The position numbers were made by a program, and so were the translations under genes. The notes beneath the pieces were generated by a model. That model saw nothing but the letters and a program-made list of their open reading frames with translations, did not search any database and was not told where the DNA came from. From the NCBI GenBank assembly GCA_005889535.1, contig VBHC01000123.1, forward strand, positions 1 to 61,722: a stretch of DNA of 61,722 bases, given 5' to 3'. Below, piece by piece: positions 5,113 to 39,387 of the stretch (position 1 is the first letter of the stretch; each line of letters begins with the position of its first letter). The DNA comes from Chloroflexota bacterium (GTDB lineage Bacteria; Chloroflexota; Dormibacteria; CF-121).

Positions 5113-5127
5113 AGGCGAGGATCGCGC

Positions 5128-5739: not shown

Positions 5740-5893
5740 CTCCCGGAGGGCGTAACCAAAGTCCCGGCGGGGCCGTTCGACAGAGGCAACCGGAACATTC
5801 TCGGACCCATCCCGTACAGAGGAGCTCCGCTTAGGTTACAATGGCTAAGTCAGATTTCCGTAGAGCAGTTACGGTACGTTTTAGGGGCCTGAA

Positions 5894-8313: not shown

Positions 8314-8340
8314 CGCCCCGACCGCTTCCCTGAGAGCGGC

Positions 8341-8715: not shown

Positions 8716-8717
8716 CC

Positions 8718-8951: not shown

Positions 8952-9163
8952 CTGGAAAACACGCTCCTCCCGCGCCAACCCCGCCCGGTACCGCCAAACG
9001 CTACGGCCATCGTACCACTTGCGTTTTTGCCGACCGACGCCGGTTTGGCGGCACGAAATTTCGGAATCTTGGGTGAACTTGGTTATACTTACCACCGGTG
9101 GAAAGGGGGGAAAGGTGACAGACGCGATGTTGACTTTCGCGATACGGCGTCCAAGGAGGGGAC

Positions 9164-16046: not shown

Positions 16047-16187
16047 TCCGGAGCGAGGGGGGATCCTCCGGCTAGAAAACCGATAGGCGGCGCGCTCAAT
16101 AAGCCGGATAGCCGTTGCAGTTGAATCCGGACTGTGCGTCAAATAGCCTGTGCGGCCGGTCGAATTGATCCTATTGAGGTTGCCCTG

Positions 16188-17780
16188 ATGCCACAAGTAG
16201 CGGCCCGCAGCGGCGGGCTGGGCGCGAGGTTCCGTCGTCGCTGGTGGGTCCTCCCCATCGTTTTGCTGCTGGTTGCCGCCGGGCTGGTGCTGCGCGCCTT
16301 GACCACCCCGCTGGCCGTCAGCGCCAGTGTGGCCGACGGCGATCATGCCGTGGTCCGCGGTTCGGCGGTCATCCTGACCTTCAGTCAGGACATGGACGTG
16401 GCATCGGTCAAGCATGGCTTCCGGATCACGCCGTCCGTTCCTTACACGGTGCTGGTCAAGGACCCGCACACCTTCGAATTCCATGCTCAGCTCCAGGCCG
16501 ACACCGGCTATCGAATCCAGGTCGCTGGCGCCCGCAAAGCCATCGGCTTCGGGAGCCAGAACTACGGCGTCGCGTTTCACACGGAGCCGGCACCGAAGGT
16601 GACCGGAGCCAGCTTCAACGATGCCGCGCTGGCCGATGGCCAGCAGGCGGTCGCCCTGCATGGCACCCTCAAGGTCACCTTCTCGCAGCCCATGGATCCG
16701 GCCCGGACGCCGTTCTTGCTCGACGGCGCTCCGCTGGAGCCCAAGACGATCACCTGGGACAAGAGCAGCCTGACGGCGAGCGCCCTTCTTTCGCTCACTC
16801 ACAGCCGGACCCACACCCTGCTGGTGCCAAAGAGCGCGGCCAATCGCAAGCGAGATTCGGCGCTGGCCGATTGGAAGCTCAGTTTTACCACCATGGTGCA
16901 GGTGCCGTCGGCGGGCTCGACAGCCCGGATCGGCAGCTCGGGCGCACCGATCATCGTCCAGATCGAAAACAGCACGCAGACCACGGTTCGGCCCCAGACC
17001 GGCATGCAGCAGGCGGACATGATTTACGAGTACATCAGCGAGTTCGGGATACCGCGGCTTTCCGCGATCTACTGGCACCCACCGTCGAGTCTCATCGGTC
17101 CGGTCCGGAGCTGCCGCTTGATCACGGTCCAGCTGGAGCAGATGTACCGGGGCATGATCTATTGCTCCGGCGCCAACAACTACGTGCTCGGGCAAGTTTG
17201 GAAATGGCCGAACGTCGTCTACGACTACGCGTACATGTACGCCTATATGTACCGGGCTTCTGACCGCTACGCCCCGCACAACGTGATCGCCCGGCCTGAC
17301 CAAATTACGGCGCACACGGCGGGAGCCAACTTGCCCGCCCTGAGTTATGACATCGCTGCAGCGCACCCTGACGTGCCGCTGCCTGGCGCAATCCCGGCAA
17401 CCTCTGTGACCATCAAGCAGCACAGTGCCGTGTGGCGCTACGATGCCAACCGTCACGAGTACTTGAAGTGGCAGGATGGAGTACCCTTCACCAACGTTGG
17501 GACCGGGCAGGTGCACGCCAAAAATTTGATCATCGAGCGTGTGCCCTCGTATATCGATCGGAACCCTGCTAACACCGGGGTCCACGGCACCTACAACACG
17601 GAGTACTACGAACTGGCGGGTGAAGGCACGGCCGACATCTACTCGGATGGCGGGATGATCCATGCGACGTGGAAGCATCCCAACCGAGACCTACCGGTGG
17701 TTTACTACGATGCCAGCGGCAACCCGATCGACCTCAACACCGGGTTGACCTGGGTTCACGTCATAGGGAGTGATCAATGA
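16188..17780 (+). CDS. Membrane-anchored Ig-like (Big_5) + DUF3048 (YerB-like) protein
   Basis: TM; FSQDMD/FSQPMD Ig motifs; QIEN..RPQTG...AD..YE..E.GI.R, GPVRS.R, APHN, G.TWVH. Confidence 0.8.
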   Translation: MPQVAARSGGLGARFRRRWWVLPIVLLLVAAGLVLRALTTPLAVSASVADGDHAVVRGSAVILTFSQDMDVASVKHGFRITPSVPYTVLVKDPHTFEFHAQLQADTGYRIQVAGARKAIGFGSQNYGVAFHTEPAPKVTGASFNDAALADGQQAVALHGTLKVTFSQPMDPARTPFLLDGAPLEPKTITWDKSSLTASALLSLTHSRTHTLLVPKSAANRKRDSALADWKLSFTTMVQVPSAGSTARIGSSGAPIIVQIENSTQTTVRPQTGMQQADMIYEYISEFGIPRLSAIYWHPPSSLIGPVRSCRLITVQLEQMYRGMIYCSGANNYVLGQVWKWPNVVYDYAYMYAYMYRASDRYAPHNVIARPDQITAHTAGANLPALSYDIAAAHPDVPLPGAIPATSVTIKQHSAVWRYDANRHEYLKWQDGVPFTNVGTGQVHAKNLIIERVPSYIDRNPANTGVHGTYNTEYYELAGEGTADIYSDGGMIHATWKHPNRDLPVVYYDASGNPIDLNTGLTWVHVIGSDQ

Positions 17781-19342
17781 CCTGGATGCAAACACTACGT
17801 CAACGCTGGTGGCTGGCACCGATCGCCATCCTCCTGGTCGCGGCGGCCATCGTGATTCGCATCATCACCACGCCGCTCGAGGTCAACGCCAACGTCAACG
17901 ACGGTGACCAGGCGGTCCCCCGGACGGCCACGATCGACCTTCGCTTCAACCAGGACATGAAATCGGACTCGGTGCAGCATGCCTTCAGCATCAGCCCTGG
18001 CGTGCTGGTCGGCTTCAAGGCCGTAAGCGCCCGCGAGTTCCAATTCCGGCCGAAGATGGCGCCGAACACCTCCTACCACGTCAGCATCAAGGACGCCAAG
18101 AACACGTCGGGCCGGGGCGTCAGCAGTGGCTTTCGTTTCAAGACCGAGCCCGCGCCGGGCATTGCGAATGTCAAGGTCAACAACGAGAGCGTGAGCGACG
18201 GCCAGCAGGGGCTGAAGCCGACCGGTGCCATCCAGATCGGCTTCTCACAGCCGATGGACGGTGCCAAGACGCCGATCGCCGTGAACGGCAAGGCGTTCGA
18301 CAGCAAGAAGGTCAGTTGGTCCCACGACGGCAAGGCGGCGACGCTGGATTTGAAGCTCGGGCACAGCCACCCCTATCAGTTGTCGATTCCGCAGACGGCG
18401 GTCAATCGCAAGCAGGACCCGCTGGCAGCGGACTGGAAGTTCTCCTTCACGACAGTGATCGAGGTGCCGTCGCAGGGCGACCCGGCCAGGATCGGGGCAG
18501 GAGCCCCGACCATCATCCAGATCGAGAACAGCAGCGATGCGCGTCCACAGGCCGGCATGCAGCAAGCCGACATGGTCTACGAGTACATCAGCGAGGGCTC
18601 GATCCCGCGGCTCAGTGTGATCTACTGGCACCCGCTGCCCGACCTGGTTGGTCCGGTGCGGAGCTGCCGCCTGATCACCATCAGATTGGAGTTGATGTAC
18701 AAGGGGATGATTTATTGCTCCGGGGCGAACGATTATGTCCTGGGGATGGTCTGGAAATACCCCAACCTGGTCAATGACTACAGCCGCGGCGCGGGAAACG
18801 TGTTTTATCGCGCCTCAGACCGGTATGCCCCGCACAACGTCATGATGCACGGCAACAACGTCACCGCCTTCACCGCCAGCAAGAACGTCGCGGCACCCAC
18901 CTATGACATCGCGCCCAAACATCCTGACGGAACCTTCACTGGTGACGCCGCTCCCCAAATCTCGGTCCCCGACCACGGAGCGACCTGGCAGTACGATCCC
19001 AATTCGAAGCAGTACTTCAAATCGCAGGACGGGCGGGCCTTCAACAACGTGGGCACCGGTCGGGTCCACGCCAAAACCGTGATCGTCGAATATGTCAACT
19101 CCTTCCTCGACACCAACCCGGCAAACAGTTTCCACGGCTATTTCACGGAGGCCTATGAGTTGACCGGCGACGGCCGGGCCGACATCTTCGTCGACGGCAT
19201 GGTGGTCCACGCCACCTGGCACCATCCGGATCCAAATGTCCCGGCGGTCTACCTGGACGCGAACGGAAACCCGATCGAGCTGGACAACGGGTTGACCTGG
19301 GTCCATGTGATCGGCTCCCAGAAGTGGCACGGCGGCATCTAA
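17777..19342 (+). CDS. Second Ig-like + DUF3048 protein (tandem paralogue)
   Basis: Same motifs; ATGA overlap with upstream gene. Confidence 0.8.
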   Translation: MTWMQTLRQRWWLAPIAILLVAAAIVIRIITTPLEVNANVNDGDQAVPRTATIDLRFNQDMKSDSVQHAFSISPGVLVGFKAVSAREFQFRPKMAPNTSYHVSIKDAKNTSGRGVSSGFRFKTEPAPGIANVKVNNESVSDGQQGLKPTGAIQIGFSQPMDGAKTPIAVNGKAFDSKKVSWSHDGKAATLDLKLGHSHPYQLSIPQTAVNRKQDPLAADWKFSFTTVIEVPSQGDPARIGAGAPTIIQIENSSDARPQAGMQQADMVYEYISEGSIPRLSVIYWHPLPDLVGPVRSCRLITIRLELMYKGMIYCSGANDYVLGMVWKYPNLVNDYSRGAGNVFYRASDRYAPHNVMMHGNNVTAFTASKNVAAPTYDIAPKHPDGTFTGDAAPQISVPDHGATWQYDPNSKQYFKSQDGRAFNNVGTGRVHAKTVIVEYVNSFLDTNPANSFHGYFTEAYELTGDGRADIFVDGMVVHATWHHPDPNVPAVYLDANGNPIELDNGLTWVHVIGSQKWHGGI

Positions 19343-21729: not shown

Positions 21730-23763
21730 CTACGCCGCGGCGAACGCTTTCTCGCGGTTCATCCAGCGAGGCAGCGCGCTGAGCAACGCGGGGCCCTCGA
21801 CCTGCGTCTTGATGACGTACTCCAGGGCGCCCAACTGGATCGCGCGCTTGATCAGGGTGGGCTCGCTGAAGTTCGACATCACGACGACCGGCGTGTTCTT
21901 TGTCTCATCGGAGGCGCGCAAGGTCTGAAGCACAAGAATCCCATTCTGGCGCGGCATCATGACATCCAGCAGGATGACCTGCGGTTGCACCCGGGTGCAG
22001 AGGTCAACGCCTGACACCCCGTCGTTCGCGACTTCGACCTGGTAACCGTTGCCCTTGAAGAGCGTCGCGTAGTAGCTGGCGGCGGTGTGGTCGTCCTCGA
22101 TGATCACGATGGTCCCGGCGCTGGGTCGATCACCGTTTTCGTCGGTGGGCGTTTCGGGGACGCCGGCGTCAGGCGCTTCCGCGGTCTCGCTGCTCGTGAC
22201 AGGTACCGCTTCCTCAGATTCCGCCGGCGACGTCGGCCTCCACGCATCATATGCCTCGGCCACAGCAGGTTCCGTGGTGAGTTCGGCTGGCGGCGTGGTT
22301 TCAGCTGGCTCCTCGCCCGCCGTCTGCGCTGGCTCCTCGGAGGCCGCGCCGTCTTCGGCTCGTCCCCACGGTTCCGACCGCCAGGTCGAATCGGATGACG
22401 TCGCCTCGGGCTCGGCGGTTGACGTCTCCGCTGCCGCCGGCTCCTCGCCCCTGCTGGATTCCTCGCCCTTGTTGGATTCCTCGCCGAACATCATCGCCCG
22501 CATCGACCGGCGTGCGTCTGGTTTCCGCTCGGTCTCCGGCTCCGATCCCCGTACCCCGGCTGCCTCCGGCTCGGGCGTAAAGCCATGAGCCTCGGGTTCG
22601 CTGCTGGCCGTCTCCGAGACGTCCTCCACGCTCTCCGTCTTCTCCGATTCTCCAGCCGCGTCGACGTCGGCCGGCTCTTCAGCGGCAGGTGGGCCGAACT
22701 GCAGGGGCAGTGACTCTTCCTTCGCGGGAGCTGTTCTTGGCGGCGCGGTTGGGTCCGCTGCGGGCGTGGCCGGCTGCCAAGGCCCGGTCGACGCCTCGGC
22801 GGGTGGCGAGCCAGCCGCTGGCGTTACGGGTGACGTGACCGGCGCGCCGCTCGATGGGGCTGGAGGCGTCCAGCCCGTCGGGGGGAGCGGCTCCACTTTC
22901 TGCTGGACCATTTTCTCGAGGCTCTCGAGAACGTTGAAATTGAATCGCCGCCGTTTCGGCTTTCCCCGACGTCCGCCATCCTGGGCAGGCGACTCGCCCA
23001 TGGCGGGCTCGACCGCGGTTGGATTGCCGAAGGCCGGCATTCCCCCCGGCATGGCCGGAATACCGGGTGGCGCCATGGACGGCGGGGATGCCGAAGGTCC
23101 GCTGGAGGCCGCCGGCAAGCCCGGTTGTCCGAACGGCGCAGGTGGCCCGTACAGGCCGGGCGCGAACGGCGGGGGCATGGCTGAGGGGGCCGGACCCATC
23201 GGTTGCGATGGCGCCGATTGCGGCTGGTAGAACGGGACCTGGCCGGGTGGCCCGCCCGGCATGGGTCGCCCGGCGGCGGCGGGGAAGCCCCAGGGCGCCG
23301 GCGGCGGCGGCGCGGCCCACGGGGCGTTCGGTGTGGCGTACGGCGATGCCATCCCCGGTTGAGGGTGAGGTTGTGGAGGTCCGGCCTGCAGCGGATTCGT
23401 GTTCGGCGCCCAGCCGGCCGGCGTGGGCGGTGAGTAGATTTGCGGACCGGACATCCCGGCCTTTTGCAGCGCTGTGCCGAGGTTTCGCGCGTAGGTTCGG
23501 CCCCCCTTCACCGGCGGCAACGCTCCGCCTTCGGCGTGTCCTTCGTCGACGGGTGCGGCCGCCGCGTAACGCCGGCCGCCCTGAGGCGACCCACCTGACT
23601 TGGCGGCCGACAGGTCACGCTCCAGCCGCTCGTTCCGCCAGCGCGTGATCAGAAGCTGGATAGTGAACCAGCCGAGCAGCGCCGCGAGCAGGACGATGAC
23701 TTTGTCCCGGTTCGCGAAGACGAGGTGACTGAAGGGCGTCAGGAACTCTTGAAGGCCGCTCAT
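21730..23763 (-). CDS. Membrane-anchored protein with long Pro-rich/acidic disordered linker and C-terminal receiver domain
   Basis: N-terminal TM; IIEDD...LLDVMMPRQNG...MSN..YVIK at C-terminus. Confidence 0.8.
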   Translation of the reverse strand: MSGLQEFLTPFSHLVFANRDKVIVLLAALLGWFTIQLLITRWRNERLERDLSAAKSGGSPQGGRRYAAAAPVDEGHAEGGALPPVKGGRTYARNLGTALQKAGMSGPQIYSPPTPAGWAPNTNPLQAGPPQPHPQPGMASPYATPNAPWAAPPPPAPWGFPAAAGRPMPGGPPGQVPFYQPQSAPSQPMGPAPSAMPPPFAPGLYGPPAPFGQPGLPAASSGPSASPPSMAPPGIPAMPGGMPAFGNPTAVEPAMGESPAQDGGRRGKPKRRRFNFNVLESLEKMVQQKVEPLPPTGWTPPAPSSGAPVTSPVTPAAGSPPAEASTGPWQPATPAADPTAPPRTAPAKEESLPLQFGPPAAEEPADVDAAGESEKTESVEDVSETASSEPEAHGFTPEPEAAGVRGSEPETERKPDARRSMRAMMFGEESNKGEESSRGEEPAAAETSTAEPEATSSDSTWRSEPWGRAEDGAASEEPAQTAGEEPAETTPPAELTTEPAVAEAYDAWRPTSPAESEEAVPVTSSETAEAPDAGVPETPTDENGDRPSAGTIVIIEDDHTAASYYATLFKGNGYQVEVANDGVSGVDLCTRVQPQVILLDVMMPRQNGILVLQTLRASDETKNTPVVVMSNFSEPTLIKRAIQLGALEYVIKTQVEGPALLSALPRWMNREKAFAAA

Positions 23764-24196: not shown

Positions 24197-24439
24197 TCAG
24201 CCGGCCTTGCGACCCTGGAATCCCAGGTTCGGAAGATCATCGCGAAGATTCTCCATGGACTTCGCGTAGACCCAGTAGTCGAGCGCAGCCTTCGAAAAGA
24301 CAACGCGTTCGCCGACTTTGGTGAATGGGATCTGATGCTTGCTGACCATGTCGTCGATCACGTCGGAGGGAACCCCCAGGTAGCTGGCGGCCTGGAGGGT
24401 GTTCATGACGTAGTTGACGCCAGTTGGATCGTAGATCAC
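24197..24439 (-). CDS. Excisionase/BldC-like HTH_17 DNA-binding protein
   Basis: MNTLQAASYLGV...IPFTKVGERVVFSKAALD.W; GTG start after GGAGGA. Confidence 0.75.
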   Translation of the reverse strand: MIYDPTGVNYVMNTLQAASYLGVPSDVIDDMVSKHQIPFTKVGERVVFSKAALDYWVYAKSMENLRDDLPNLGFQGRKAG

Positions 24440-24501
24440 GATCGAGTCCTCCAATGCTGAATTTTCGCTACCTATAATAGGGTTCGCTGCCGAGGCCTCA
24501 A

Positions 24502-24579
24502 GGCCCGTTCGTCTAGCTGGTCCAGGACGCTGCCCTCTCAAGGCAGAAATCAGCGGTTCGAATCCGCTACGGGCTACCA
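24502..24579 (+). tRNA. tRNA-Glu(CTC)
   Basis: Cloverleaf GGCCCGT...ACGGGCT-ACCA; anticodon arm CTGCC-CTCTCAA-GGCAG; GGTTCGAATCC. Confidence 0.95.
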
Positions 24580-24690
24580 CTCAACTGGACACTCTGCGGC
24601 TGTGCTTCCCGCTGAGGTTCTCCATCCCGACATTGGCGCTTGCCCGCAAGGTAACGTCGGTCATCGAGATTTAGCAGTCACAACACCGTC

Positions 24691-24939
24691 GTGTCTTACC
24701 CCACGCGACCCGAAGAAGATCAGGAGCGGACGCGGATCCAATTAGGCTGCGCCCTAGCGGCCGCCATTGGGATCGCTTTCCTGTTGCTTGTCCTCTTCGG
24801 AATCGTCTATTTGTTTTTCGTCGCTCTTGGGCATGTGACGATCGCTGCCGCAGCGGTTGAACAGACATCGCCTGGACTGGCGCCAAATTCGATTGTTCGA
24901 TTAGTGTCCGCCACGGGCTATAAAACCAATTTCGGATAG
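24691..24939 (+). CDS. Small membrane protein (cassette 1); ORF runs through the repeat, possibly truncated
   Basis: Long hydrophobic segment. Confidence 0.45.
   Translation: MSYPTRPEEDQERTRIQLGCALAAAIGIAFLLLVLFGIVYLFFVALGHVTIAAAAVEQTSPGLAPNSIVRLVSATGYKTNFG
24882..24920 (+). repeat. tRNA-Glu 3'-end-derived att-like repeat, copy 1
   Basis: GCCAAATTCGATTGTTCGATTAGTGTCCGCCACGGGCTA. Confidence 0.85.
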
Positions 24940-24986
24940 GTTCGGGCTATGCCTGCTGCGACACGTAGGCTTTGCCGCCCCCGGAG

Positions 24987-25571
24987 TCAGCTCCCAGGCC
25001 CAGCAACCGGCCCGAGAGAATTCGCGATCTGCCAGAACTCGGCTTCCGCGAAGCCCTCGGTGGAGAGGAAGTACGGGACGCCATACTCCGGCTTGATCTG
25101 GAGGTTCGGGCTGGCCGTGCCGGGCTCTCCCCAGTCAATGAACCTCCGGCTGGTGGGCGGCGACTGGCTATCGACCTGGTAAAGGGCCGTAACCCCGCGG
25201 AAACGCGGGTATGACTGGGTACCGTCTGGCTGCGGCGGCGGCGGTTGGGCTATCCCGAGCTCGAAGAAGATACGCCGCGAGCCGTCCACGCTGGCATAGG
25301 TGACCTGAAAGTCATCGGCCGACACTGTCACCTGGGCGGTGTATCCGACAGGAATTGCTTTAGGCAGAAGCACCGGCCGCGACCCGGTCACTGTCCGCCC
25401 GATCAGGGCCGCTGCCTCGTCCAACGAGAGGGTGCGCGGCATCGTGGCCGGGGTGGGGGAAGTCGGGGTCGTGTTGGTCGCCCGAGAGATATGTTGGGCC
25501 CCGCCGCACGCGCTGAGAATGAGGGTCGCCGCAATGGCGAGGCCGGAACCCGCGCGGGCTAGCTTGCGCAC
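24987..25571 (-). CDS. Putative lipoprotein (cassette 2)
   Basis: Lipobox LSAC, Thr/Pro linker. Confidence 0.7.
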   Translation of the reverse strand: MRKLARAGSGLAIAATLILSACGGAQHISRATNTTPTSPTPATMPRTLSLDEAAALIGRTVTGSRPVLLPKAIPVGYTAQVTVSADDFQVTYASVDGSRRIFFELGIAQPPPPQPDGTQSYPRFRGVTALYQVDSQSPPTSRRFIDWGEPGTASPNLQIKPEYGVPYFLSTEGFAEAEFWQIANSLGPVAGPGS

Positions 25572-25801
25572 CTTCTAGCTGTGTTAACGATCGCCGCTCC
25601 GGAAAGTTCCTCGGGCTCTGCAGCAAGGTACCAAAGTGCACGCTTTAGACTCGCAGATGGGGAGTCGGCAGACGCCCTAGAGGCTGGGCAACCTGTCATT
25701 GAATAGGCTCCCGGGGGTCTCCTGCTCCCCTCGCTTAAGCTCCCGGTGTCCTTGACACTGCCTCGCGGTGCCCACTTAAACTACGGGTCTGCTGGGACCG
25801 A

Positions 25802-25840
25802 CCCAATTAAATTGTTCGATTAGTGTCCGCTGGGGCTACC
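25802..25840 (+). repeat. att-like repeat, copy 2
   Basis: CCCAATTAAATTGTTCGATTAGTGTCCGCTGGGGCTACC. Confidence 0.8.
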
Positions 25841-25961
25841 GCCGAACTCCGGTTCCATGGCCGACGCGCCTGCGCCGAATGTGTAATCCCGTGCGGATCT
25901 GGTCGTGCCGCCGAGCCACCCGCTTACCATAAGGGCGCTAACAGGACATGAGAGGTGAGCC

Positions 25962-26324
25962 ATGGAGCAGGTGCTAACGATCTCGACAACCTGGGGAACG
26001 AACGACCCAACGAAGGCAACGATCCCATTCCATCTAGCCCGCGGCGCCAAGCAGACCGGCATTGATGTCCGGATTGTTCTCGCGGGCGACTCGACAGACC
26101 TGATCCGCTCGGGCGTTGCGGAGACGGTACGAGGCAAGGGCGTACCGCCGCTTGCTGAAGTTCTGGACTTCGCGCGCGAAAACAAAATCCCAGTGCATGT
26201 CTGAAAGGGTTGCGCCGAGGCCCGTGGGGTCTCTCAGGCTGAGGTCGATGCCATCGGCGGATCGTGGATCGATCCAAAAGGTTGGACGCGCTTGATCATT
26301 GAGGGACGTAACATCGCGTTCTAA
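25962..26324 (+). CDS. DsrE/DsrF-family protein, probable selenoprotein (in-frame TGA 26202-26204; cassette 3)
   Basis: DPTKATIPF..A.GA...V.I.L.GD DsrE pattern; V-TGA-K-G-C-AEARG sits at the CxxC position; frame continues 39 codons to TAA. Confidence 0.8.
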
Positions 26325-26354
26325 TTAGACGGTCGTGCCTGACGGCGACGAGTC

Positions 26355-26391
26355 GCCAAAGCCGTGTCCGATTAGTGTCCGCCACGGGCTA
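26355..26391 (+). repeat. att-like repeat, copy 3
   Basis: GCCAAAGCCGTGTCCGATTAGTGTCCGCCACGGGCTA. Confidence 0.85.
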
Positions 26392-26420
26392 TGACTACCC
26401 CAACTCTTGAATAGGCCGAG

Positions 26421-27077
26421 CTATCGAGTGATGTTGGTCTTGGCCCTCGCCGCACTGGCTAAGCGCCCGGCGCTGCGCCTGCGCCATAGGACGATACCGC
26501 CAATTCCAGCTGCGATCAGAACCAGCGCCGCGACCTCGGGCAGGAGCTCGATCGGCGACCACGGCGACCGGCCCATCGCCCAGACGGTCAAACCGCTCGG
26601 CATGGTTGAGCATTGGACCTCGCCTTTGCTGCTGTAGCGCGTCGGAGGCAATCCATCATCGGCGCTCCGTGTCAGGTGGGCCCAGAGACCGCCTCTGTTA
26701 GCGTTGGTAAAGGTGACGTCAAGCGAGTTCAGCACGAGATGTTCGTGTTGCCGATGTCGCGCCGCGAAATAGGCCATCAAGTTCTCCCGGTCGTACGCTT
26801 CCGCGTTGAGACGCTGTCCAGGGGCATCCGTTGCATACCAGACAAACTGCTGCTGGGATACGAGTCGGTCCAGTTGGGCGATGTCGCCCCGGTTGAAGGC
26901 ATCAATGAAGCGCTCGACGACCTGGCGGACTCCTTGGGGCGTGCATTGATTTGGAGTACCGGGCGAGCCCGATGCAGCTCCCACCTGGCAACCGGCCAGA
27001 AGGACGAGCTGCGTGCAGCTCGCCACGATTAGCCAGAGACGTCTGCCCATCGCCAGAACGACGCGGGCCTTGCCCAT
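26421..27077 (-). CDS. Putative lipoprotein with NTF2-like fold and C-terminal TM (cassette 4)
   Basis: LAGC lipobox; VERFIDAFNRGD; C-terminal TM + RRR. Confidence 0.6.
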   Translation of the reverse strand: MGKARVVLAMGRRLWLIVASCTQLVLLAGCQVGAASGSPGTPNQCTPQGVRQVVERFIDAFNRGDIAQLDRLVSQQQFVWYATDAPGQRLNAEAYDRENLMAYFAARHRQHEHLVLNSLDVTFTNANRGGLWAHLTRSADDGLPPTRYSSKGEVQCSTMPSGLTVWAMGRSPWSPIELLPEVAALVLIAAGIGGIVLWRRRSAGRLASAARAKTNITR

Positions 27078-27134
27078 TCCCCTGCGGCGCAGCCTACCCC
27101 ACGCCGACGGCTTACGACGGGTCTTTGGAGACCG

Positions 27135-27173
27135 GCCAATTCAATTGTTCGATTAGTGTCCGCCACGGGCTAC
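27135..27173 (+). repeat. att-like repeat, copy 4
   Basis: GCCAATTCAATTGTTCGATTAGTGTCCGCCACGGGCTAC. Confidence 0.85.
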
Positions 27174-27230
27174 TCGCTGAAATCTGAGCGCCACACCGGA
27201 CAGTCAGCATTCGCGATCCGGCCGCAGTAC

Positions 27231-27629
27231 TTAATCGCGGACCTCGCGAAATCCGGCTGCTGTGAAATCGCCGTCAAAAGCCAGCGCTTCCCGGATTCGT
27301 AGCGATCGCATGAGAGCAAAGCTCGTCGCGTCCACGAAGGAATATTCGCGCTCGTCATGACGGCGCAGCCAACGTAGCGCCGCCGTCTCTAAATCGGCAG
27401 ATACAACAACCAGTCGAAGCCGCGGCGACCGGTCGATTGAATCGAGAAAATCAACTGCCGATCGGTGCCCGGCGCGCCGCCGGAGGAATGTCCACGTCTC
27501 CCCGCGGACGTGATTGCTGGTGACCAGTGGCTCCGCGGCGTGGCTTGCCAGAAGGCTTCGTGCCAGGTCGTGAGAATTGTCGCGGCGGTTACGAAGCGCC
27601 ACCCAGAACGACGTATCGACAAAGATCAC
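27231..27629 (-). CDS. vapC: VapC PIN-domain toxin
   Basis: FVDTS, E.W, SFVDA.SF, FDGDF. Confidence 0.9.
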   Translation of the reverse strand: MIFVDTSFWVALRNRRDNSHDLARSLLASHAAEPLVTSNHVRGETWTFLRRRAGHRSAVDFLDSIDRSPRLRLVVVSADLETAALRWLRRHDEREYSFVDATSFALMRSLRIREALAFDGDFTAAGFREVRD

Positions 27630-27838
27630 CGATAGACGACATCGTCGATCGCGGCGGGCTCGAAGTCATCAGCACCGGCCATCCGTCCGATGGGGTCGGC
27701 CGACAGTGGGGGGAGCGGCTTAAGGCGCTCGCGAACGTAGAGCCGGATCAAAGCGGCCTTCGACGTACGGGCCTCGAGCGCGGCCCTCTCTAGTTCCGCG
27801 TCGACGTCCTCTTCGATCATGATCTGGAGCCGTTTCAT
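27626..27838 (-). CDS. CopG/RHH antitoxin (VapB-like)
   Basis: MKRLQIMI...SKAALIR; overlaps vapC start. Confidence 0.8.
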   Translation of the reverse strand: MKRLQIMIEEDVDAELERAALEARTSKAALIRLYVRERLKPLPPLSADPIGRMAGADDFEPAAIDDVVYR

Positions 27839-27956
27839 GGTTGGAGTATACATCACTTCTTTGATGTTGATGTAAGAATAGGTTCGCGGCTAGATACTCT
27901 TCCTGCGTCGGGGCCTGACCCTTGACTGCCGGATCGCCCTCCTCGATGCTTCGACT

Positions 27957-29561
27957 GTGGGAGGTGCCTCGGGGCGGATAACGGTTCGGGAACGGATCCA
28001 TCCCGAGATCACGGCCACGCTTTTTGCCAACTACCGGTCTTCGGCGGACACGCTGATGGAGCTGATCGACAACGCTTTGGATTCGCGCCGATCTGGAGAG
28101 CCAATGAAGGTGGAGGTCGCCATTCACGGTGAAGGGATCACGGTGATGAGCGAAGGCGGCGAGGGCATGGGGCCGAAGGACCTCGAACGCCGCTATCTCC
28201 GTTGGGGCAAGTCCACCAAGCGCGGCAAGGACCTGCTTGGACAATACGGCCAGGGTGGTAAGGCAGCGATCGGTCATCTCGGCCGTAGCTTCTCGGTCGA
28301 GTCAAGTCGTCCGGGCGACCCTATAGCCTGGCGTTTTACCGACCCAAACTACCGTGACCGGAGCCGACTGAAGACCTACGAGTTGCATGAGGTGGCCAAG
28401 CATGTTGCAGACGATCTTGGCTACGTTCGGATCCGGATCGATGACGTCGATAAGCGGGTCGACTTAAAGCGGGTTGGCCAGCGGCTCGCCGATGCATTTC
28501 GTCTGCTTCTCGAGCGAGGCGATCTCCAGATCATCTTGAACGGGTCGCCGCTAAGGCCAAGGTCGCTCGGGGAAGTCGCACGTAAGGATTTTCGTGTCAG
28601 GGCTGCCGCTACCATCGTTGCTGGCTGGGTCGGAACGGTCGATCCCGCGAAGAGGACCGCCGACTTCGTTCCCGGCGTGCGGTGCTATCGGTTAGGGCGC
28701 CTGGTCAAAGACGGCGAGTTCTTCGGGCACCCAACACCCGCCCAGGAGCCTGGAATGGCGCTGTTGATCGGCGAGGTTGAAATTCCTCGGGTCCCGCTGA
28801 CGATCAACAAGAGCGACTTCGATCGGGACAGCGCACCGTGGGTCGACATCGAGGGTCGACTCCATCGCCTGCTGAAGCCGATCGCGCGGCAGCTCTCGAG
28901 GCAGCCCGAGAGTCCGCCCCCACCATCCGCGGTTAGAGTCGCTCAGCAGGTGCGGCGTTTATTGAGCCAGGCGCTTCGCTGGGCAGACCGCCCTGAACTC
29001 TTCCTAGGCAGCGCTCCAATGCGTCCCCGGATGTCAGCCCCAAGCAATGGTGATCGAGCATCCCAACCGCATCTGCCTGAGGCGGAGCAGCCGCCCCTAT
29101 CACAAAGCGGATCAAATGCTGCATCGAAGCGCCGGGGCTTCGGGGATATCGTCATCAGGCAGCTCGGCCCGGCGATCCGAAGCCAGACCGTTATCAAGGA
29201 TGCAGTCAAAGTCGTCGTGATCAATTCGCAGCATCCCCTCTATCGCGAGCGCAAAGGCGACATCTGGTATCAGCTCGAAACCGCGGCAAGCGAGATATGC
29301 AAATCCATCGAAGGCGTGACCGTCGCCGAATACGAACGCCGGGTCAACGAGATTGTGCTTCTCGCTTTCCGGCGGCCGCCAATCCCAGGCATAGGCCTCA
29401 TCAGCACCATTGCTTCCAAAGAATGTGAACCCCACCACTCCCTTGGGATGGCTGGCAGGTTAGTAGCCAGTCGCTCCATCAATGCGCTCCCGAAGGAGAT
29501 CCGCATGCCCGTTGTGTCGGGAGTACTCCTCAATCATGTGGACCAGGATCCAGCGCAGTGA
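27957..29561 (+). CDS. GHKL (HATPase/MORC-like) ATPase; native C-terminus probably lost
   Basis: ELIDNALD, G.GM, GQYGQGGK; VINSQHPLY; tail overlaps the convergent DinB gene by about 100 bp. Confidence 0.75.
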   Translation: MGGASGRITVRERIHPEITATLFANYRSSADTLMELIDNALDSRRSGEPMKVEVAIHGEGITVMSEGGEGMGPKDLERRYLRWGKSTKRGKDLLGQYGQGGKAAIGHLGRSFSVESSRPGDPIAWRFTDPNYRDRSRLKTYELHEVAKHVADDLGYVRIRIDDVDKRVDLKRVGQRLADAFRLLLERGDLQIILNGSPLRPRSLGEVARKDFRVRAAATIVAGWVGTVDPAKRTADFVPGVRCYRLGRLVKDGEFFGHPTPAQEPGMALLIGEVEIPRVPLTINKSDFDRDSAPWVDIEGRLHRLLKPIARQLSRQPESPPPPSAVRVAQQVRRLLSQALRWADRPELFLGSAPMRPRMSAPSNGDRASQPHLPEAEQPPLSQSGSNAASKRRGFGDIVIRQLGPAIRSQTVIKDAVKVVVINSQHPLYRERKGDIWYQLETAASEICKSIEGVTVAEYERRVNEIVLLAFRRPPIPGIGLISTIASKECEPHHSLGMAGRLVASRSINALPKEIRMPVVSGVLLNHVDQDPAQ

Positions 29562-29993
29562 GACGGCTCTTCCGGTACGCTGGCGCCCTTCATCCATAAG
29601 CTGGTGTCGGGCGATGACCTGGCTCGCCAGTTCGCACTCCGATCGCCATGCGGCGAACATATCATCGACATCGGCGCCGTCGATGTCATTGAAGTCGGCA
29701 TCCGGGTCCGCATCGGTCGCGTAGAGGTCGCCAATAACCTCCAGTGCCAGAGTCCGCCGAAACCAACCTCGTTCCACATCAGTCAGATGGCGAATAAGTC
29801 CGAGTAGGCTGAGCGTCGAGGGAGCCGCCGAACGCGTTCGCAGTTGCTCTGGCGTGAGGCCAGCGCACTTCCGCGCCAGCGTCGACCGCTGCCACTCCAG
29901 GAAGGCGACAAGCGTCGCCCGCTCATCGGCCGTGCGCGGGATGTCGTCGTATCGCAGCTCTACGGGTGAAGCCTTCCCCTCGGTCCTGGCCAT
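29460..29993 (-). CDS. DinB/DUF664 family protein
   Basis: L..QR...KC.GL, LLGLIRHL..VE..WF, HMIEEYSRHNGHADLLRE.IDG. Confidence 0.85.
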   Translation of the reverse strand: MARTEGKASPVELRYDDIPRTADERATLVAFLEWQRSTLARKCAGLTPEQLRTRSAAPSTLSLLGLIRHLTDVERGWFRRTLALEVIGDLYATDADPDADFNDIDGADVDDMFAAWRSECELASQVIARHQLMDEGRQRTGRAVSLRWILVHMIEEYSRHNGHADLLRERIDGATGY

Positions 29994-30128
29994 CGGGACT
30001 CTCATCAGACAAGGTAACACCAGTGATGATGTTGGCGGCGGCTGCGATGTCCTCAATCGGGGCTTGGTCGAAGATGTCAAGGAAGTCGTCCTGAGAAGGT
30101 CGTCAACGCCCATCTCGTTGCTCAGTCC

Positions 30129-30598
30129 ATGCGGCTAGTCAGGGTCTTCGTCATGGCCGCATTCCTACCCTTGCTGATAGGTGTGGGATTTCTGGTTCTC
30201 ATTAACAGGGGTGCAGGAATCCAAGGCCTGATTGTGCAGCCCGACTGTGTCTATCCCGTCCTTACGACGCCGTGCCAGATTCAGTGGTTGCCACTGAAGG
30301 CCCAAGTCCGGGTCTTCCGTGCCGTTCCTAGACCGGATGGCATCTCTGACCCTGGGCCTCTACTCACGACCGCTGAGGCAGGCCCAGTCAAAATTGGTGG
30401 GATAGCGAGCCAATGCTGGTCACCGTGCGGCCCTGGTCATTCGAGGACATCCGCATCCAAGTGAGAGGCAACCCGGCAGCGATATGTTTGGCAGCAACAG
30501 ATCGCATCGACACCCCAACCGGGCAAGTACCTGTTTCGCAAATCCGGGTCGGGATGATCGTCTGGACACTGGACGCTACAGGCCGCCGGGTGAGCGTT
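30129..30598 (+). pseudogene. Decayed membrane/secreted protein with N-terminal part of a Hint domain
   Basis: Two frames; the second reads CLAATDRIDTPTGQVPVSQIRVGMIVWTLD, then breaks off. Confidence 0.55.
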
Positions 30599-30867
30599 AG
30601 ACGAACGCCCCAGGGAGTCGCTGGCGTTGGAATGCTCTGGCCGAACGCCCCGAGGTTGCCTACCCCGGTCATGGCCTGCATACCGATCGCTATCCAGAAG
30701 ATCCATTCGTAGCGTTGGGCGACCTCAAGGCGCGCATCGCTGCCACGATTCATTGGCGGCGGGCGCACTGTGAGCCACCAGACCAGCAGGGCTCCGCCGA
30801 GGATTGCCGCCATGCCAACGACGTGCGCCCATCGGATAAGCAGGCTGAGTGGTTCCATGCGCGTCAC
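30595..30867 (-). pseudogene. Truncated CopD-like membrane protein
   Basis: LIRWAHVVG.A..LGG, TGVGN; ends at junction with the Hint fragment. Confidence 0.5.
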
Positions 30868-30874
30868 CGTCTAA

Positions 30875-30906
30875 GGGGAAAGGGCGACCCGAGGCCGCCC
30901 TTCCCC
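30875..30906. terminator. GC hairpin downstream of the sialidase-like gene
   Basis: GGGGAAAGGGCG...CGCCCTTCCCC; no clear U-tract. Confidence 0.4.
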
Positions 30907-30921
30907 AATATGTCGAGAAGC

Positions 30922-32718
30922 CTAGCCCGTTGAGATTGACTGAATATCGGTGTTGCCGAAGTTCATCGGGCAGTCGGTGAGCGGCCATGGCGCTCCGGGA
31001 AGATCGCGGTGCCCAGCGGCGTAGGAGCGCTCGCGATAATCCTGGATCGGGGAGCAGACGGCGGCATTCGCGGCAGAGGTCCAGACGCCGACTCCGTAGG
31101 TGTTCGACGCTGCCGCGTAGACATAATCGCCGACGCGCTCCTGGTACAGATCGTGGCCGGGATAGGTCGCGAGGAGATCGCCTGGCGGCGATTCGTTGAA
31201 CACCGTCGCCCATCCGGCTGGGGCCCCGGTCGATCCGAGAGCCGAACTGACAAACACGCCATGGTACGGTCGCGGCGTGTGGAAGTCGGCGCCCGCCCAC
31301 GGTGCCATATCCGCTTCATAGACGACATACGCGTGCGAACCATCGGGTGCGATGGCGGGCGCGGCGTAGAGCGGCCGATCACCACCTCGTGAAACGGCGG
31401 TCGGAGCACTCCAGGATGCTCCTCCGTTCGTCGAATAGATGAAGTCAGCGACTTCGCCATTCAGCACCGGGGCGTCGGCCCAGGCGTCGACGATCTCGTT
31501 GGTGGCTCCGGCGCCGGTTGGAGCGCCGTTGGCAATGGAGACACTGGGCGACGCGGCGAGATCGGTTCGCGCACCGGCGTAGCCGTCCATCACGCAGCGG
31601 CCCTCGACCGGATCGATGAAGTAGCAGGGGTCTGTAACGTGGGTGATCACGGTGGGCGCGGTCCAATGCAGACCTGCATCGAACGACTTGAACATCACCT
31701 GTGCGCTGTGGGTCGGAAGTCCGGTTATCGCCGGGTTCGCGAACCGCTCCGCGAAGAGGTAGACGATGCCCGTGCTATCCGTCCTGATGGTGCATCCGCT
31801 GTAGCCGAAATCATTGGGTCCACGGCCGTTGGTCGCCGCCGAGGTGACCGACTTTTTGGTCCACGTGCTACCGCCGTCGGCTGAGGAGAAGACTTGAACC
31901 GGCACCGGGGAGTTGCCGTTCTTGTGACTGCCATTGCTTCGGAAATCGTTGGCGCAGATGTAGGTATGCCCAAAGAACGGGCTCGAGGCGGCGTTGTCAG
32001 CCCAGATCTGTTCCTTGTCATAGAAGGAGGTCTGACCCTGTGCACTCGATACGATCACCGGAGCCTTCCAGCTGCTCTTGTTGAGGATGGAGGCTGGCGT
32101 GGGGTTGTCCAGGCGGGAGGCCGCGACGCCGACGAATCCATTGAAGACCGGGTTCGGGAAGGAGAACTCCACCTGGGTACTGAATGCCGTGGTCAGGTTC
32201 GCGTAGTAGACCCGCTCCCCATTGCCCCACGAAAACGTCCCGTCATTGCCGGGAATCGGCCCCACAGCCACCGCAGGGTCGCCGAAGGAGACGAGCTGGT
32301 TCTCGTAATACCAGGGCAGGGTGTGGATCGGGCCGGTGTTGCCTTTGCAGGGTGTCATCGGGTCGCATGCGGCCGTAGTCCAACCCGTGTAGGTAGGCTG
32401 CGTCCAGCTGTGACCTGCATCGAACGAGAAATAGACACCGGAGACGCCGACCCCCGTGGCTCTGTCCAGACATGTGCCACTGTTTACGGCCAGCGGTCGC
32501 GGGCACGCCTGCTCATCGACAAAATCGTTCGAGCCGGCTACCAGGGTATTCGGCGACATCGCGTCCAGGGCAACCGCCGGCTCGTTCTGGTGGTTCTGCG
32601 GGGTGTTCCCCGGCGGGCTGCCGGAGCTGACACGGCTTGATGTCTGAGCGAATGCGCCGGTCGTCGACATCAGGACCGCCGCCATCGACGCCAGCAACGC
32701 ACGCATAGGCTTTCTCAT
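30922..32718 (-). CDS. Secreted BNR/Asp-box (sialidase-like) beta-propeller protein
   Basis: Signal peptide; repeated S.DGG.(S/T)W Asp boxes; QNEP, DP, DKE, GDY; AAGGAGG RBS. Confidence 0.8.
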   Translation of the reverse strand: MRKPMRALLASMAAVLMSTTGAFAQTSSRVSSGSPPGNTPQNHQNEPAVALDAMSPNTLVAGSNDFVDEQACPRPLAVNSGTCLDRATGVGVSGVYFSFDAGHSWTQPTYTGWTTAACDPMTPCKGNTGPIHTLPWYYENQLVSFGDPAVAVGPIPGNDGTFSWGNGERVYYANLTTAFSTQVEFSFPNPVFNGFVGVAASRLDNPTPASILNKSSWKAPVIVSSAQGQTSFYDKEQIWADNAASSPFFGHTYICANDFRSNGSHKNGNSPVPVQVFSSADGGSTWTKKSVTSAATNGRGPNDFGYSGCTIRTDSTGIVYLFAERFANPAITGLPTHSAQVMFKSFDAGLHWTAPTVITHVTDPCYFIDPVEGRCVMDGYAGARTDLAASPSVSIANGAPTGAGATNEIVDAWADAPVLNGEVADFIYSTNGGASWSAPTAVSRGGDRPLYAAPAIAPDGSHAYVVYEADMAPWAGADFHTPRPYHGVFVSSALGSTGAPAGWATVFNESPPGDLLATYPGHDLYQERVGDYVYAAASNTYGVGVWTSAANAAVCSPIQDYRERSYAAGHRDLPGAPWPLTDCPMNFGNTDIQSISTG

Positions 32719-39000: not shown

Positions 39001-39129
39001 CGGCGAGCGTCCCAGTAAACTGATCGCAGCGCCGCCCGAGATTCGGGTGGCGTTTTCTTTTCCCGGCACGCATCCTATAATTGCGGTCACCTTTTGGGGG
39101 AGGTGATGCCGGCCAAGCGCCACGACAAG

Positions 39130-39298
39130 TCAATCGCCGTCAGGTGGCTCGAAGTGAGCTGAAAAGGGAAGCCGGTGTGAGTCCGGCGCGAACCCGTCAC
39201 TGTAACCGGGGAGCCGTGGACGAGATCCACTGAGGCCCGTGGCCTTGGGAAGGAGTTCAACGGCAACGATCCGGAGCCAGGAGACCTGCCTGTCGGGG
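39130..39298 (+). promoter_or_regulatory. Cobalamin riboswitch
   Basis: AGGT..AAAAGGGAAGCCGGTG..A.TCCGGCGC...CCCG.CACTGTA...CCACTG...GGGAAGG...AGCCAGGAGACCTGCC. Confidence 0.92.
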
Positions 39299-39387
39299 AC
39301 CAACGACCCTCTTCGAGGCTGAGAGGGAGGTGCCAGGCATCTTCTCCGATCGGCCTCCAGTTGCTCATCAACGCTCTGGAGGACACC

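What the first reader, a model, noticed from the sequence alone, without database searches (positions are those of the whole stretch)
24563..27173. Integron-like single-gene cassette array anchored at tRNA-Glu
Seen: four copies of an approximately 38-bp repeat. Three end TCCGCCACGGGCTA (13/14 identical to the tRNA 3' end TCCGCTACGGGCTA) and copy 2 is more degenerate. All carry a non-tRNA arm CCAA...TGT(T/C)CGATTAGTG; copies 2 and 4 also share ACGGGTCT further upstream. Intervals of about 0.34, 0.92, 0.55 and 0.78 kb each hold one gene, in either orientation. No integrase in the window. Known: integrative elements duplicate tRNA 3' ends. Inference: minimal non-autonomous cassettes accreted by a recombinase acting in trans, a tRNA-based analogue of integrons.
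Basis: partly seen in the sequence, partly recalled or inferred. Interest (0 to 1): 0.85.

Follow-up and report, generated by a model that had tools for sequence, protein, structure and literature searches.

The report
tRNA-anchored mobile gene cassette arrays
Soil bacteria of the uncultured phylum Dormibacterota keep rows of small swappable gene cassettes behind a tRNA gene, each ending in the same 27-letter tRNA-like tag, which looks like an integron-style gene-collecting system whose enzyme is still unknown.

Summary
tRNA-Glu(CTC) lies at 24502-24579, followed by four direct ~40-nt repeats ending at 24920, 25839, 26391 and 27172.

The repeat ("R") has a 27-nt hyperconserved core. It is the tRNA-Glu 3' end with two substitutions and a 5-nt insertion.

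It is not a local oddity:
- A second array lies in the same genome (C181).
- R occurs in 15 of 24 same-genus genomes, in other genera of the family, and in at least 119 soil metagenome contigs. It was found in no viral contig.

In 109 loci (835 kb) I catalogued 262 R sites. They are never on both strands of one locus, and the median spacing is 717 bp. 131 of 208 cassettes hold one ORF, in either orientation (67:64).

Homologous cassettes sit in different arrays, positions and species, always with the same polarity. Homology breaks exactly at the repeat end (GGGCTA|).

No recombinase is linked to the arrays. R does not fold like attC, so this is not an integron.

Best reading (0.6): a family-wide, tRNA-anchored, site-specific cassette system served by an unidentified recombinase in trans. 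Rivals are homologous exchange on R, and decayed islands.

The window's variable region runs to about 30875. A fifth R was lost by a 250-bp deletion.

The parts
24197..24460 (-). Gene for an 87-aa excisionase-family (HTH_17) DNA-binding protein, divergent from the tRNA. It is a conserved neighbour of the anchor tRNA across the family. Candidate accessory factor only.
   Evidence: Pfam HTH_17 at 6.7e-7. NCBIfam TIGR01764 'excise' at 3.2e-10. Found next to tRNA-Glu in 25 of 30 family genomes and in 0 of 70 genomes of other families at E<=1e-8.
24502..24579 (+). tRNA-Glu(CTC), the anchor of the array. Synteny with relatives stops exactly at its 3' end.
   Evidence: ARAGORN. Rfam tRNA at 61.1 bits. 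Alignments to relatives end at 24576-24581.
24580..24920 (+). Cassette 1. It holds a small membrane-protein ORF (24691-24939, +) that runs into repeat R1 (24881-24920).
   Evidence: No Pfam match.
24921..25839 (+). Cassette 2. It holds a 194-aa putative lipoprotein ORF (24987-25571, -) and ends in the degenerate repeat R2 (25800-25839).
   Evidence: Homologues of the ORF occur in 7 loci.
25840..26391 (+). Cassette 3. It holds a DsrE-like gene (25962-26324, +) with a conserved in-frame TGA and ends in repeat R3 (26352-26391).
   Evidence: Pfam DsrE at 1.1e-11. The same cassette lies in another array of G010 (82%), in G001 (85%), and in G043 and G005.
26392..27172 (+). Cassette 4. It holds a SnoaL-like lipoprotein ORF (26421-27077, -) and ends in repeat R4 (27133-27172).
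27173..29373 (+). Compound cassette 5. It holds VapB/VapC (27626-27856 and 27231-27629, -) and a HATPase_c_3 protein gene (from 27957, +). Its terminal repeat is deleted in the window.
   Evidence: Pfam. The HATPase gene is bounded by R on both sides in G001. VapBC remnants sit in a separate cassette in G011. L165 has 250 extra nt carrying the gene's 3' end and a fifth R.
29374..30875 (.). Repeat-less tail of the variable region. It holds an MST/DinB gene (29460-30113, -) and a membrane ORF (30388-30867, -). The conserved flank resumes at about 30875.
   Evidence: Pfam. Synteny with G043 and G005 resumes at 30875/30876. No further R was found by nhmmer.

Best explanation
The locus is one array of a family-wide system of mobile gene cassettes in Candidatus Dormibacterota.

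What a cassette is:
- It is 0.3-3 kb long and usually holds one gene with its own expression signals, in either orientation.
- It ends in a conserved recombination site, R. The core is TGTTCGATTAGTGTCCGCCACGGGCTA, preceded by a weaker CCCAATTCRAT arm.
- R derives from the 3' end of tRNA-Glu(CTC).

Proposed mechanism (inferred, not shown):
- A sequence-specific recombinase, encoded elsewhere, exchanges DNA within or at the 3' edge of R.
- It also acts on the matching stretch of the tRNA gene, or on a bare 21-nt tRNA-Glu 3' fragment ('X') at secondary loci.
- Cassettes are thereby inserted, excised and reshuffled in fixed polarity, and the tRNA stays intact.

Shown here:
- The site and its conservation.
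- The arrays.
- The fixed polarity.
- The exact coincidence of homology breakpoints with R and with the tRNA end.
- Cassette sharing between arrays and between species.
- The absence of a linked recombinase.

Inferred only:
- That the exchange is site-specific.
- That intermediates are circular.
- Which enzyme does it.

Candidates for the enzyme are an element-borne integrase not captured in these assemblies, or the single chromosomal Xer-like tyrosine recombinase. The conserved Xis-like HTH_17 protein encoded next to the tRNA may help.
For: 1) The site.
- In 239 distinct contexts, positions -1 to +25 carry 1.0-1.96 bits each. Conservation falls sharply after GGGCTA.
- Positions 1-24 were selected by the search pattern. 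Positions -1, 0 and 25 were not.

2) Distribution.
- R occurs in 15 of 24 same-genus genomes and in 0 of 16 genomes of other families.
- R-type repeats lie behind tRNA-Glu in 5 of 5 tRNA-Glu loci examined from two other genera of the family.
- R occurs in at least 119 metagenome contigs.

3) Architecture.
- There are 262 R sites in 109 loci, and no locus has R on both strands. Median spacing is 717 bp.
- 131 of 208 cassettes hold one ORF.

4) Mobility.
- There are 147 homologous cassette pairs between loci, and all 147 keep the same polarity.
- Neighbouring cassettes differ in 101 comparisons and agree in 26.
- Of 126 pairs, 40 alignments end within 3 nt of the repeat end. Only 1 ends 15-99 nt past it, and 22 run on 100 nt or more.

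5) Clean cases.
- L118 and L120 share a cassette at 99.6% identity and diverge right after GGGCTA.
- In one genome (G006), two arrays share exactly R-cassette-R.
- A cassette of the own genome (C181) is 93% identical to one in the G042 tRNA-Glu array, while the flanks are about 76% identical.

6) The tRNA junction.
- Exchange also happens exactly at the tRNA 3' end.
- There, identity with R is at most 8 uninterrupted bases. That is too short for RecA-type recombination.

7) No linked enzyme.
- None of the integrase places in 30 genus genomes lies on a contig with R sites.
- In 835 kb there are 3 tyrosine and 3 serine recombinase hits, none in a constant position.
Against: - No recombinase was identified.
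- No circular or excised junction was seen. No contig with terminal overlap was found. The laid runs were contigs only and gave just short-sided joints.
- The sequence right of R (the start of the next cassette) is poorly conserved. That is unusual for a lambda-type attP.
- Arrays also decay by ordinary deletion, for example the 250-bp loss of R5. G043 and G005 hold the DsrE cassette without recognisable R.
- Many loci come from related or identical populations, so the counts are not independent. 259 sites gave 239 distinct contexts.
- All genomes are MAGs. Linked elements could have been lost in assembly or binning.
Confidence: 0.6

Rival explanations
1. There is no dedicated recombinase. R is a relic att site that now serves as portable homology. 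Cassettes are swapped, deleted and acquired by RecA-type homologous recombination (double crossovers between flanking R copies after DNA uptake). R is kept uniform by gene conversion.
For: - A 27-nt block of near-perfect identity is about the minimum for homologous exchange (general knowledge, recalled).
- Fixed polarity and breakpoints inside or at R also fit homologous exchange.
- No recombinase was found.
- The left arm and the right flank assort independently (p=0.84).
Against: - Exchange also occurs exactly at the tRNA 3' end. There, continuous identity with R is only 8 nt (ACGGGCTA) plus GTTCGA, broken by a 5-nt indel.
- R is invariant across genera whose core DNA is about 70-76% identical.
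- Conservation has sharp edges, as expected for a protein-binding site.
Confidence: 0.2
2. The arrays are dead remnants of ordinary integrase-bearing elements (prophages, ICEs, tycheposon-like elements). These integrated one after another at tRNA-Glu and were then whittled down by deletion. The cassettes are not mobile units today.
For: - Successive integration at tRNA genes, with partial tRNAs and decayed elements left in islands, is documented for tycheposons (passages of 10.1101/2020.12.28.424599).
- It is also documented for CIME accretion (passage of PMC5704250).
- Deletion decay is visible here.
- One mini-array sits inside an element with a large serine recombinase and a Replic_Relax gene at tRNA-Gly in G006.
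Against: - There is no integrase fragment inside any array in 835 kb.
- The median unit is 717 bp with one intact ORF.
- The same non-tRNA arm and 5-nt insertion occur in hundreds of copies.
- A 99.6%-identical cassette has different neighbours. A cassette is 93% identical between species whose flanks are about 76% identical. Both argue for recent movement of single cassettes.
Confidence: 0.1
3. R is conserved for an RNA-level role, such as a tRNA-like processing, terminator or regulatory module at gene ends. The arrays simply reflect a hypervariable region.
For: R keeps the tRNA acceptor 3' strand, and 62 of 254 copies are followed by CCA.
Against: - Genes lie in either orientation relative to R, 67:64.
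- R has no fold beyond shuffled controls, with z from -0.52 to +0.59 in 6 of 6 folds.
- There is no Rfam match at R or X sites.
- R occurs only in arrays and in one orientation per locus.
Confidence: 0.05

Closest known systems
Integrons (chromosomal cassette arrays; CALINs, i.e. attC clusters without integrase)
   Same: - Long one-directional arrays of mostly single-gene cassettes.
- Each cassette carries its own recombination site at one end.
- Cassette content is very diverse and accessory (618 clusters from 1110 ORFs).
- Cassettes are shuffled and duplicated within and between arrays.
- Arrays without an adjacent integrase exist in both.
   Different: - No IntI-type integrase was found.
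- R is a hyperconserved sequence, not a variable hairpin.
- Genes show no orientation bias, so there is no common Pc-type promoter logic.
- The anchor is a tRNA gene rather than attI.
Tandem accretion at tRNA genes and cis-mobilizable elements (CIMEs) of ICE/IME families
   Same: - Elements lie in tandem behind the 3' end of a tRNA gene.
- They are separated by direct repeats derived from the tRNA end.
- Some elements have no integrase of their own (passage of PMC5704250).
   Different: - CIMEs are decayed ICEs or IMEs of several kb, few per locus, with a cognate integrase in a neighbouring element.
- Here there are up to 9 or more units of about 0.7 kb per array, hundreds of distinct cassettes, and no cognate integrase in the arrays or on their contigs.
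Tycheposons and the tRNA-flanked genomic islands of Prochlorococcus
   Same: - Islands lie next to tRNA genes.
- They are built by successive integrations that push older elements inward.
- Partial tRNAs are scattered in the islands, and the cargo is adaptive (passages of 10.1101/2020.12.28.424599).
   Different: - Tycheposons carry their own tyrosine recombinase and replication genes, and are 1-2 per genome.
- Their partial tRNAs are plain tRNA fragments.
- Here the units are single genes, and the site is a modified tRNA end with a conserved extra arm.
Xer-dependent modules (IMEX elements; pdif modules of Acinetobacter plasmids). Recalled from memory, not read here.
   Same: Small modules of one or a few genes, bounded by short conserved recombinase sites and moved by a host recombinase encoded elsewhere.
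   Different: - R shows no dif-like two-arm palindrome.
- R sites are all direct, whereas pdif sites alternate in orientation.
- A recalled dif-like core motif gave no convincing hit in the own genome.

Membership tests
Integron | IntI-type tyrosine integrase gene adjacent to the array | tested here: not met
   - There is no Phage_integrase match in the window. The one match in the own genome is on C24.
- No integrase lies on any R-bearing contig of 30 genus genomes.
- The family's universal recombinase scores far below the integron-integrase cut-offs: 105 bits against 265.
Integron | attC sites: variable sequence with a conserved imperfect hairpin on one strand | tested here: not met
   R is sequence-invariant. 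Folded as single-stranded DNA it is no more stable than shuffles, with z from -0.52 to +0.59 in 6 of 6 folds.
Integron | Cassettes mostly promoterless and co-oriented, read from a common promoter | tested here: not met
   Single-ORF cassettes run 67 in the same direction as R and 64 in the opposite direction.
Integron | Array of discrete cassettes that change position as units bounded by their sites | tested here: met
Tandem accretion / CIME at a tRNA gene | Units in tandem at the 3' end of a tRNA gene, separated by direct repeats of the tRNA end | tested here: met
Tandem accretion / CIME at a tRNA gene | Units derive from decayed ICE/IME/prophage (remnants of integration or transfer genes), with a cognate integrase in an adjoining element | tested here: not met
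   - In 835 kb there are 3 tyrosine-recombinase hits and 3 serine-recombinase hits. None is inside an array.
- 134 representative in-array ORFs gave 89 Pfam families, with no recombinase among the 25 listed.
- Families beyond the first 25 were not shown to me.
Tycheposon | Element-borne tyrosine recombinase plus replication module beside the partial tRNA | tested here: not met
   The second-class integrases of the family sit at tRNA-Ser or tRNA-Cys, not at tRNA-Glu.
Xer-dependent modules (IMEX / pdif) | Site with two inverted ~11-bp Xer-binding arms around a 6-8 bp spacer, related to the host dif | tested here: inconclusive
   - No such symmetry is evident in the R core.
- A subset of junctions (43 of 254) has an inverted TGTTCG...CGAACA pair.
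- The host dif was not identified.
Xer-dependent modules (IMEX / pdif) | Recombination depends on the host Xer recombinase | not testable with these tools
   One Xer-like gene per genome is present in 27 of 30 genus genomes. Its action on R needs an assay.

The most novel reading that the evidence does not exclude
A second, independently evolved 'integron'. It would be a chromosomal gene-capture platform, conserved across a family of Dormibacterota. The anchor is a tRNA gene and cassettes carry a double-stranded, sequence-specific tRNA-derived site. The system would be run by a recombinase outside the known cassette systems: the host's single Xer-like enzyme guided by the conserved Xis-like HTH_17 protein next to the tRNA, or an enzyme of a family not yet recognised as a recombinase.
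Probability: 0.3. Interest if true: 0.92.

Novelty: new variant of a known kind. Interest (0 to 1): 0.8.

Why it matters
Integrons are so far the one well-understood system in which bacteria stockpile and reshuffle single genes as cassettes. This looks like an analogue built on a different site (a modified tRNA end read as sequence, not as a hairpin), in an uncultured, globally common soil phylum.

If it holds up, it would show that cassette platforms evolved more than once. It would explain part of the strain-level gene-content variation in Dormibacterota. It would also point to a recombinase-and-site pair with a 27-bp specific target that could be useful as a tool.

It also gives a concrete handle for studying gene flow in organisms that cannot yet be grown. 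The conserved site allows cassettes to be fished directly from soil DNA by PCR.

I found no description of it in the library. Searches for 'Dormibacterota' with 'integron', and for 'Dormibacterota' with 'mobile genetic elements' or 'genomic island', returned nothing relevant.

Tried and rejected
- Viral contigs: 0 matches for the R core and 0 for the plain tRNA-Glu 3' fragment. No phage or plasmid donor was found there.
- Sequencing runs: all 20 runs listed are kept as contigs. I laid 4 of the 20.
  - Loose ends pile up at the R borders and just after the tRNA, as expected for a repeat.
  - The five joints all have sides of 27-90 letters and may come from other organisms.
  - I draw no conclusion on excision or circles from them.
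  - Parts without cover mean nothing.
- Circular contigs: 0 of the fetched genome and metagenome loci L049-L170 have terminal overlaps of 20-200 nt.
- Rfam: nothing at R or X sites. The only hits are tRNAs and a cobalamin riboswitch.
- Single-strand folding of R with and without its right flank: not different from shuffles, so the attC-like hairpin idea was dropped.
- Tyrosine integrases of a second class (about 390 aa, in several genomes): they sit beside tRNA-Ser(TGA) or tRNA-Cys. They were dropped as R enzymes.
- Large serine recombinases:
  - They lie on array contigs only in G006 (C3, directly before an X site; C12, in an island at tRNA-Gly with a Replic_Relax gene), and there is a fragment in L132.
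  - The two G006 enzymes are only distantly related to each other.
  - They are kept as a lead for a vehicle, not as the general enzyme.
- dif search with a recalled short motif: no convincing site. It says nothing either way.
- PDB sequence search with the HTH_17 protein: no hit.
- Promoter and terminator scan of 24400-31000: not above shuffles.
- Linkage of polymorphic positions in R:
  - Position 6 goes with the left arm (p=5e-5).
  - Position 19 goes with neither side.
  - This places the exchange somewhere between position 6 and the right edge, no finer. The sites are related, so the p-values overstate.
- G002:C105 against own C54: a 4-kb array sits where the own genome has adjacent genes. 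The junctions are too diverged to read a clean target site.
- Supplementary files of the papers were not opened. The tycheposon supplements may hold cases closer to this one.
Full report
THE OBSERVATION

The window (contig C46 of a 2.77-Mb, 81%-complete soil MAG) holds tRNA-Glu(CTC) at 24502-24579. Four direct copies of a ~40-nt repeat lie at 24881-24920, 25800-25839, 26352-26391 and 27133-27172. The 25-nt core occurs three times at up to 3 mismatches, against 0.00 expected in shuffles. Copy 2 has lost a base and is degenerate.

Compared with the tRNA 3' end (GGTTCGAATCCGCTACGGGCTA), the repeat reads TGTTCGATTAGTGTCCGCCACGGGCTA. That is the tRNA end with A>T, a 5-nt insertion (AGTGT) and T>C. 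It is preceded by a non-tRNA arm, CCAATTCRATTG.

The four intervals hold:
- a small membrane ORF (+);
- a lipoprotein ORF (-);
- a DsrE-like gene (+);
- a SnoaL-like lipoprotein gene (-).

No tyrosine or serine recombinase match lies in the window.

IT IS A WIDESPREAD SYSTEM

The same repeat (R) forms a second array on contig C181 of the same genome.

It occurs in 15 of 24 other genomes of the genus and in 0 of 16 genomes from three other families of the class. Copies always run in series and in one direction, with up to 9 in a row (G010:C38).

An exact-match scan of one genome per species found 23 stretches. Nearly all are titled Candidatus Dormibacterota or, in older records, Chloroflexi MAGs. 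No viral contig holds R or the plain tRNA fragment.

A 14-nt core search over 201 genomes of the class showed multi-copy contigs only in the window's family. In five tRNA-Glu loci fetched from two other genera of that family, R-type repeats with the same 5-nt insertion follow the tRNA in 5 of 5.

ANATOMY FROM A CATALOGUE OF 109 LOCI (835 kb)

These loci contain 262 R sites and 55 tRNA-Glu genes or bare tRNA-Glu 3' fragments ('X', GTTCGAATCCGCYACGGGCTA). No locus has R on both strands, and median spacing is 717 bp. Some loci are the same population sampled twice: 259 sites gave 239 distinct contexts.

Conservation is nearly complete from the TG before TTCGA to the A after GGGCT. It then drops abruptly. 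An upstream CCCAATTCRAT arm is moderately conserved, and position 19 (C or G) is the one variable core position. The 24 core positions were used to find the sites, so only their flanks are an unbiased measure. The flanking TG and A are as conserved as the core.

Of 208 cassettes, 131 hold one ORF. The ORF runs with R in 67 and against it in 64, and the median coding fraction is 0.80.

Cassette genes are diverse: 618 clusters from 1110 ORFs. They are of the accessory kind:
- SnoaL-like proteins and methyltransferases;
- a Kelch protein and an MFS transporter;
- MBL-fold and alpha/beta hydrolases;
- ice-binding-like and ACT-domain proteins;
- VapBC and a HATPase_c_3 protein;
- DinB/MST, cupins and sigma factors.

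THE CASSETTES MOVE AS UNITS BOUNDED BY R

Synteny and anchors:
- Synteny between the window and eleven relatives runs up to the last bases of the tRNA (24576-24581) and then stops.
- It resumes at window 30875 in G043 and G005.
- The variable region is therefore 24580-30875.

Sharing of single cassettes:
- Window cassette 3 recurs at 82% identity in a different array of G010, bounded by R on both sides. It recurs at 85% in G001, next to a HATPase cassette that in the window lies two units further on.
- A cassette of the own genome (C181) is 93% identical to one in the tRNA-Glu array of G042, whose flanks are about 76% identical to the window.
- In G006, two arrays share exactly one R-cassette-R unit at 88.5% and nothing else.
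- L118 and L120 share a cassette at 99.6% identity and diverge immediately after GGGCTA.

Pairwise counts:
- Over all loci there are 147 homologous cassette pairs, and all 147 keep the same polarity relative to R.
- Where neighbours could be compared, they differ in 101 cases and agree in 26. Most of the agreeing cases come from near-identical populations.
- Among 126 pairs aligned with 200-nt flanks, 40 alignments end within 3 nt of the repeat's end and 13 within the next 11 nt. One ends 15-39 nt past it. 22 run on as full synteny, and 50 stop inside the cassette.
- On the upstream side, none starts between 46 and 150 nt before the preceding repeat's end.
- Two arrays contain paralogous cassettes.

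NOT REMNANTS OF INTEGRASE-BEARING ISLANDS, AND NO LINKED ENZYME

- A profile built from ten tyrosine recombinases of the family found 3 hits in the 835 kb. One is beside a tRNA-Ser, one is 11 kb from an R, and one is a fragment 3.7 kb away. Serine recombinase queries also found 3.
- Of all Phage_integrase places in 30 genus genomes, none is on a contig that holds R.
- G010, with 14 R copies, has no match at all at 85% completeness.
- Each genome has one Xer-like enzyme. In the own genome it appears split over two frames.
- A second integrase class sits at tRNA-Ser or tRNA-Cys.
- The only gene that tracks the arrays is an 87-aa excisionase-family HTH_17 protein encoded divergently next to tRNA-Glu. 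It is present in 25 of 30 family genomes, always at that place, and not found in 70 genomes of other families at E<=1e-8. This co-distribution is confounded by phylogeny and proves nothing. The tandem TTCRATT repeats in R's left arm make it a testable accessory candidate.

SECONDARY LOCI

- Arrays away from tRNA-Glu begin with, or contain, X fragments.
- In G002, a 4-kb X-R-R-R array lies between two genes that are adjacent in the own genome.
- In G006, an X-R-R mini-array lies inside a 6.9-kb insertion at tRNA-Gly that also encodes a large serine recombinase and a Replic_Relax protein. This is a possible vehicle.

HOW IT MOST LIKELY WORKS

Several things point to a sequence-specific recombinase that exchanges strands within R and the matching tRNA segment:
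- the fixed polarity;
- the sharp edges of conservation;
- the invariance of R across genera;
- above all, exchange at the tRNA end, where uninterrupted identity with R is only 8 nt.

Such exchange would leave the tRNA intact and give each inserted cassette an R at its distal end. The distribution of the first bases after the site is similar for R and for tRNA/X sites: CCA 24% against 22%, TGA 13% against 15%. That is expected if junctions are freely exchanged. The left arm and the right flank assort independently.

Homologous exchange on the 27-nt block cannot be excluded for R-by-R events. Ordinary deletion also erodes arrays. The window lacks 250 nt present in the 99.8%-identical contig L165, including the HATPase gene's 3' end and a fifth R. 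G005 keeps only a vestige of R before its DsrE gene.

COMPARISON WITH KNOWN SYSTEMS

Functionally the system resembles a chromosomal integron, but it fails three of four defining features:
- no IntI;
- no attC hairpin;
- no co-orientation of genes.

It shares tRNA anchoring and tRNA-derived repeats with tandem accretion/CIMEs and with tycheposon islands. It differs in unit size, copy number, site structure and the lack of any cognate integrase or decayed mobility genes.

I found no paper describing it. I saw search listings, passages of two papers and no supplements.

VERDICT

This is a real, widespread and apparently undescribed cassette system. The mechanism is only partly resolved because the enzyme is unknown.

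Noticed in passing
window 25962-26324 (+): The DsrE-like cassette gene has an in-frame TGA at 26202-26204, giving a U-x-x-C motif. The same TGA is kept in G005 at 81% DNA identity. The N-terminal ORF is exactly 80 aa in 12 loci. The genome has tRNA-Sec on C179 and a selD that itself has an in-frame TGA. It is probably a selenoprotein carried on a mobile cassette.
   Followed up: partly
window 29370-29373: The window lacks 250 nt that the 99.8%-identical metagenome contig L165 has (L165 7068-7317). The missing stretch holds the true 3' end of the HATPase_c_3 gene and a fifth R repeat. The long ORF 27957-29561 in the window is therefore a fusion product of a deletion, or an assembly error.
   Followed up: yes
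G000:C24:6598-7067 (own genome, outside the window): The only tyrosine recombinase of the genome (Xer-like) matches the Pfam model in two pieces in different frames. This is a frameshift, a pseudogene or an assembly error.
   Followed up: no
L046 (G006:C12) 2249-9175: A 6.9-kb insertion lies behind tRNA-Gly(CCC) relative to the own genome. It encodes a large serine recombinase, a Replic_Relax protein, an X-R-R mini-array, a glyoxalase and a hydrolase. It is a possible integrative plasmid carrying cassettes.
   Followed up: partly
window 39125-39307 (+): Cobalamin riboswitch, 114 bits.
   Followed up: no
window 21730-23763 (-): A 677-aa protein with a very long proline/alanine-rich low-complexity region and a C-terminal response-regulator receiver domain. 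It is conserved upstream of tRNA-Glu in relatives.
   Followed up: no
window 16134-19342 (+): Two adjacent paralogous genes for DUF3048 / Ig-like domain proteins (548 and 521 aa), conserved as a pair in relatives.
   Followed up: no
window 27857-27956: The spacer between vapB and the HATPase gene contains ...AGGTTCGCGGCTAGATAC.... It could be a collapsed remnant of an R or X site at a former cassette boundary. In G001 and G011 the two gene sets are separate cassettes.
   Followed up: no
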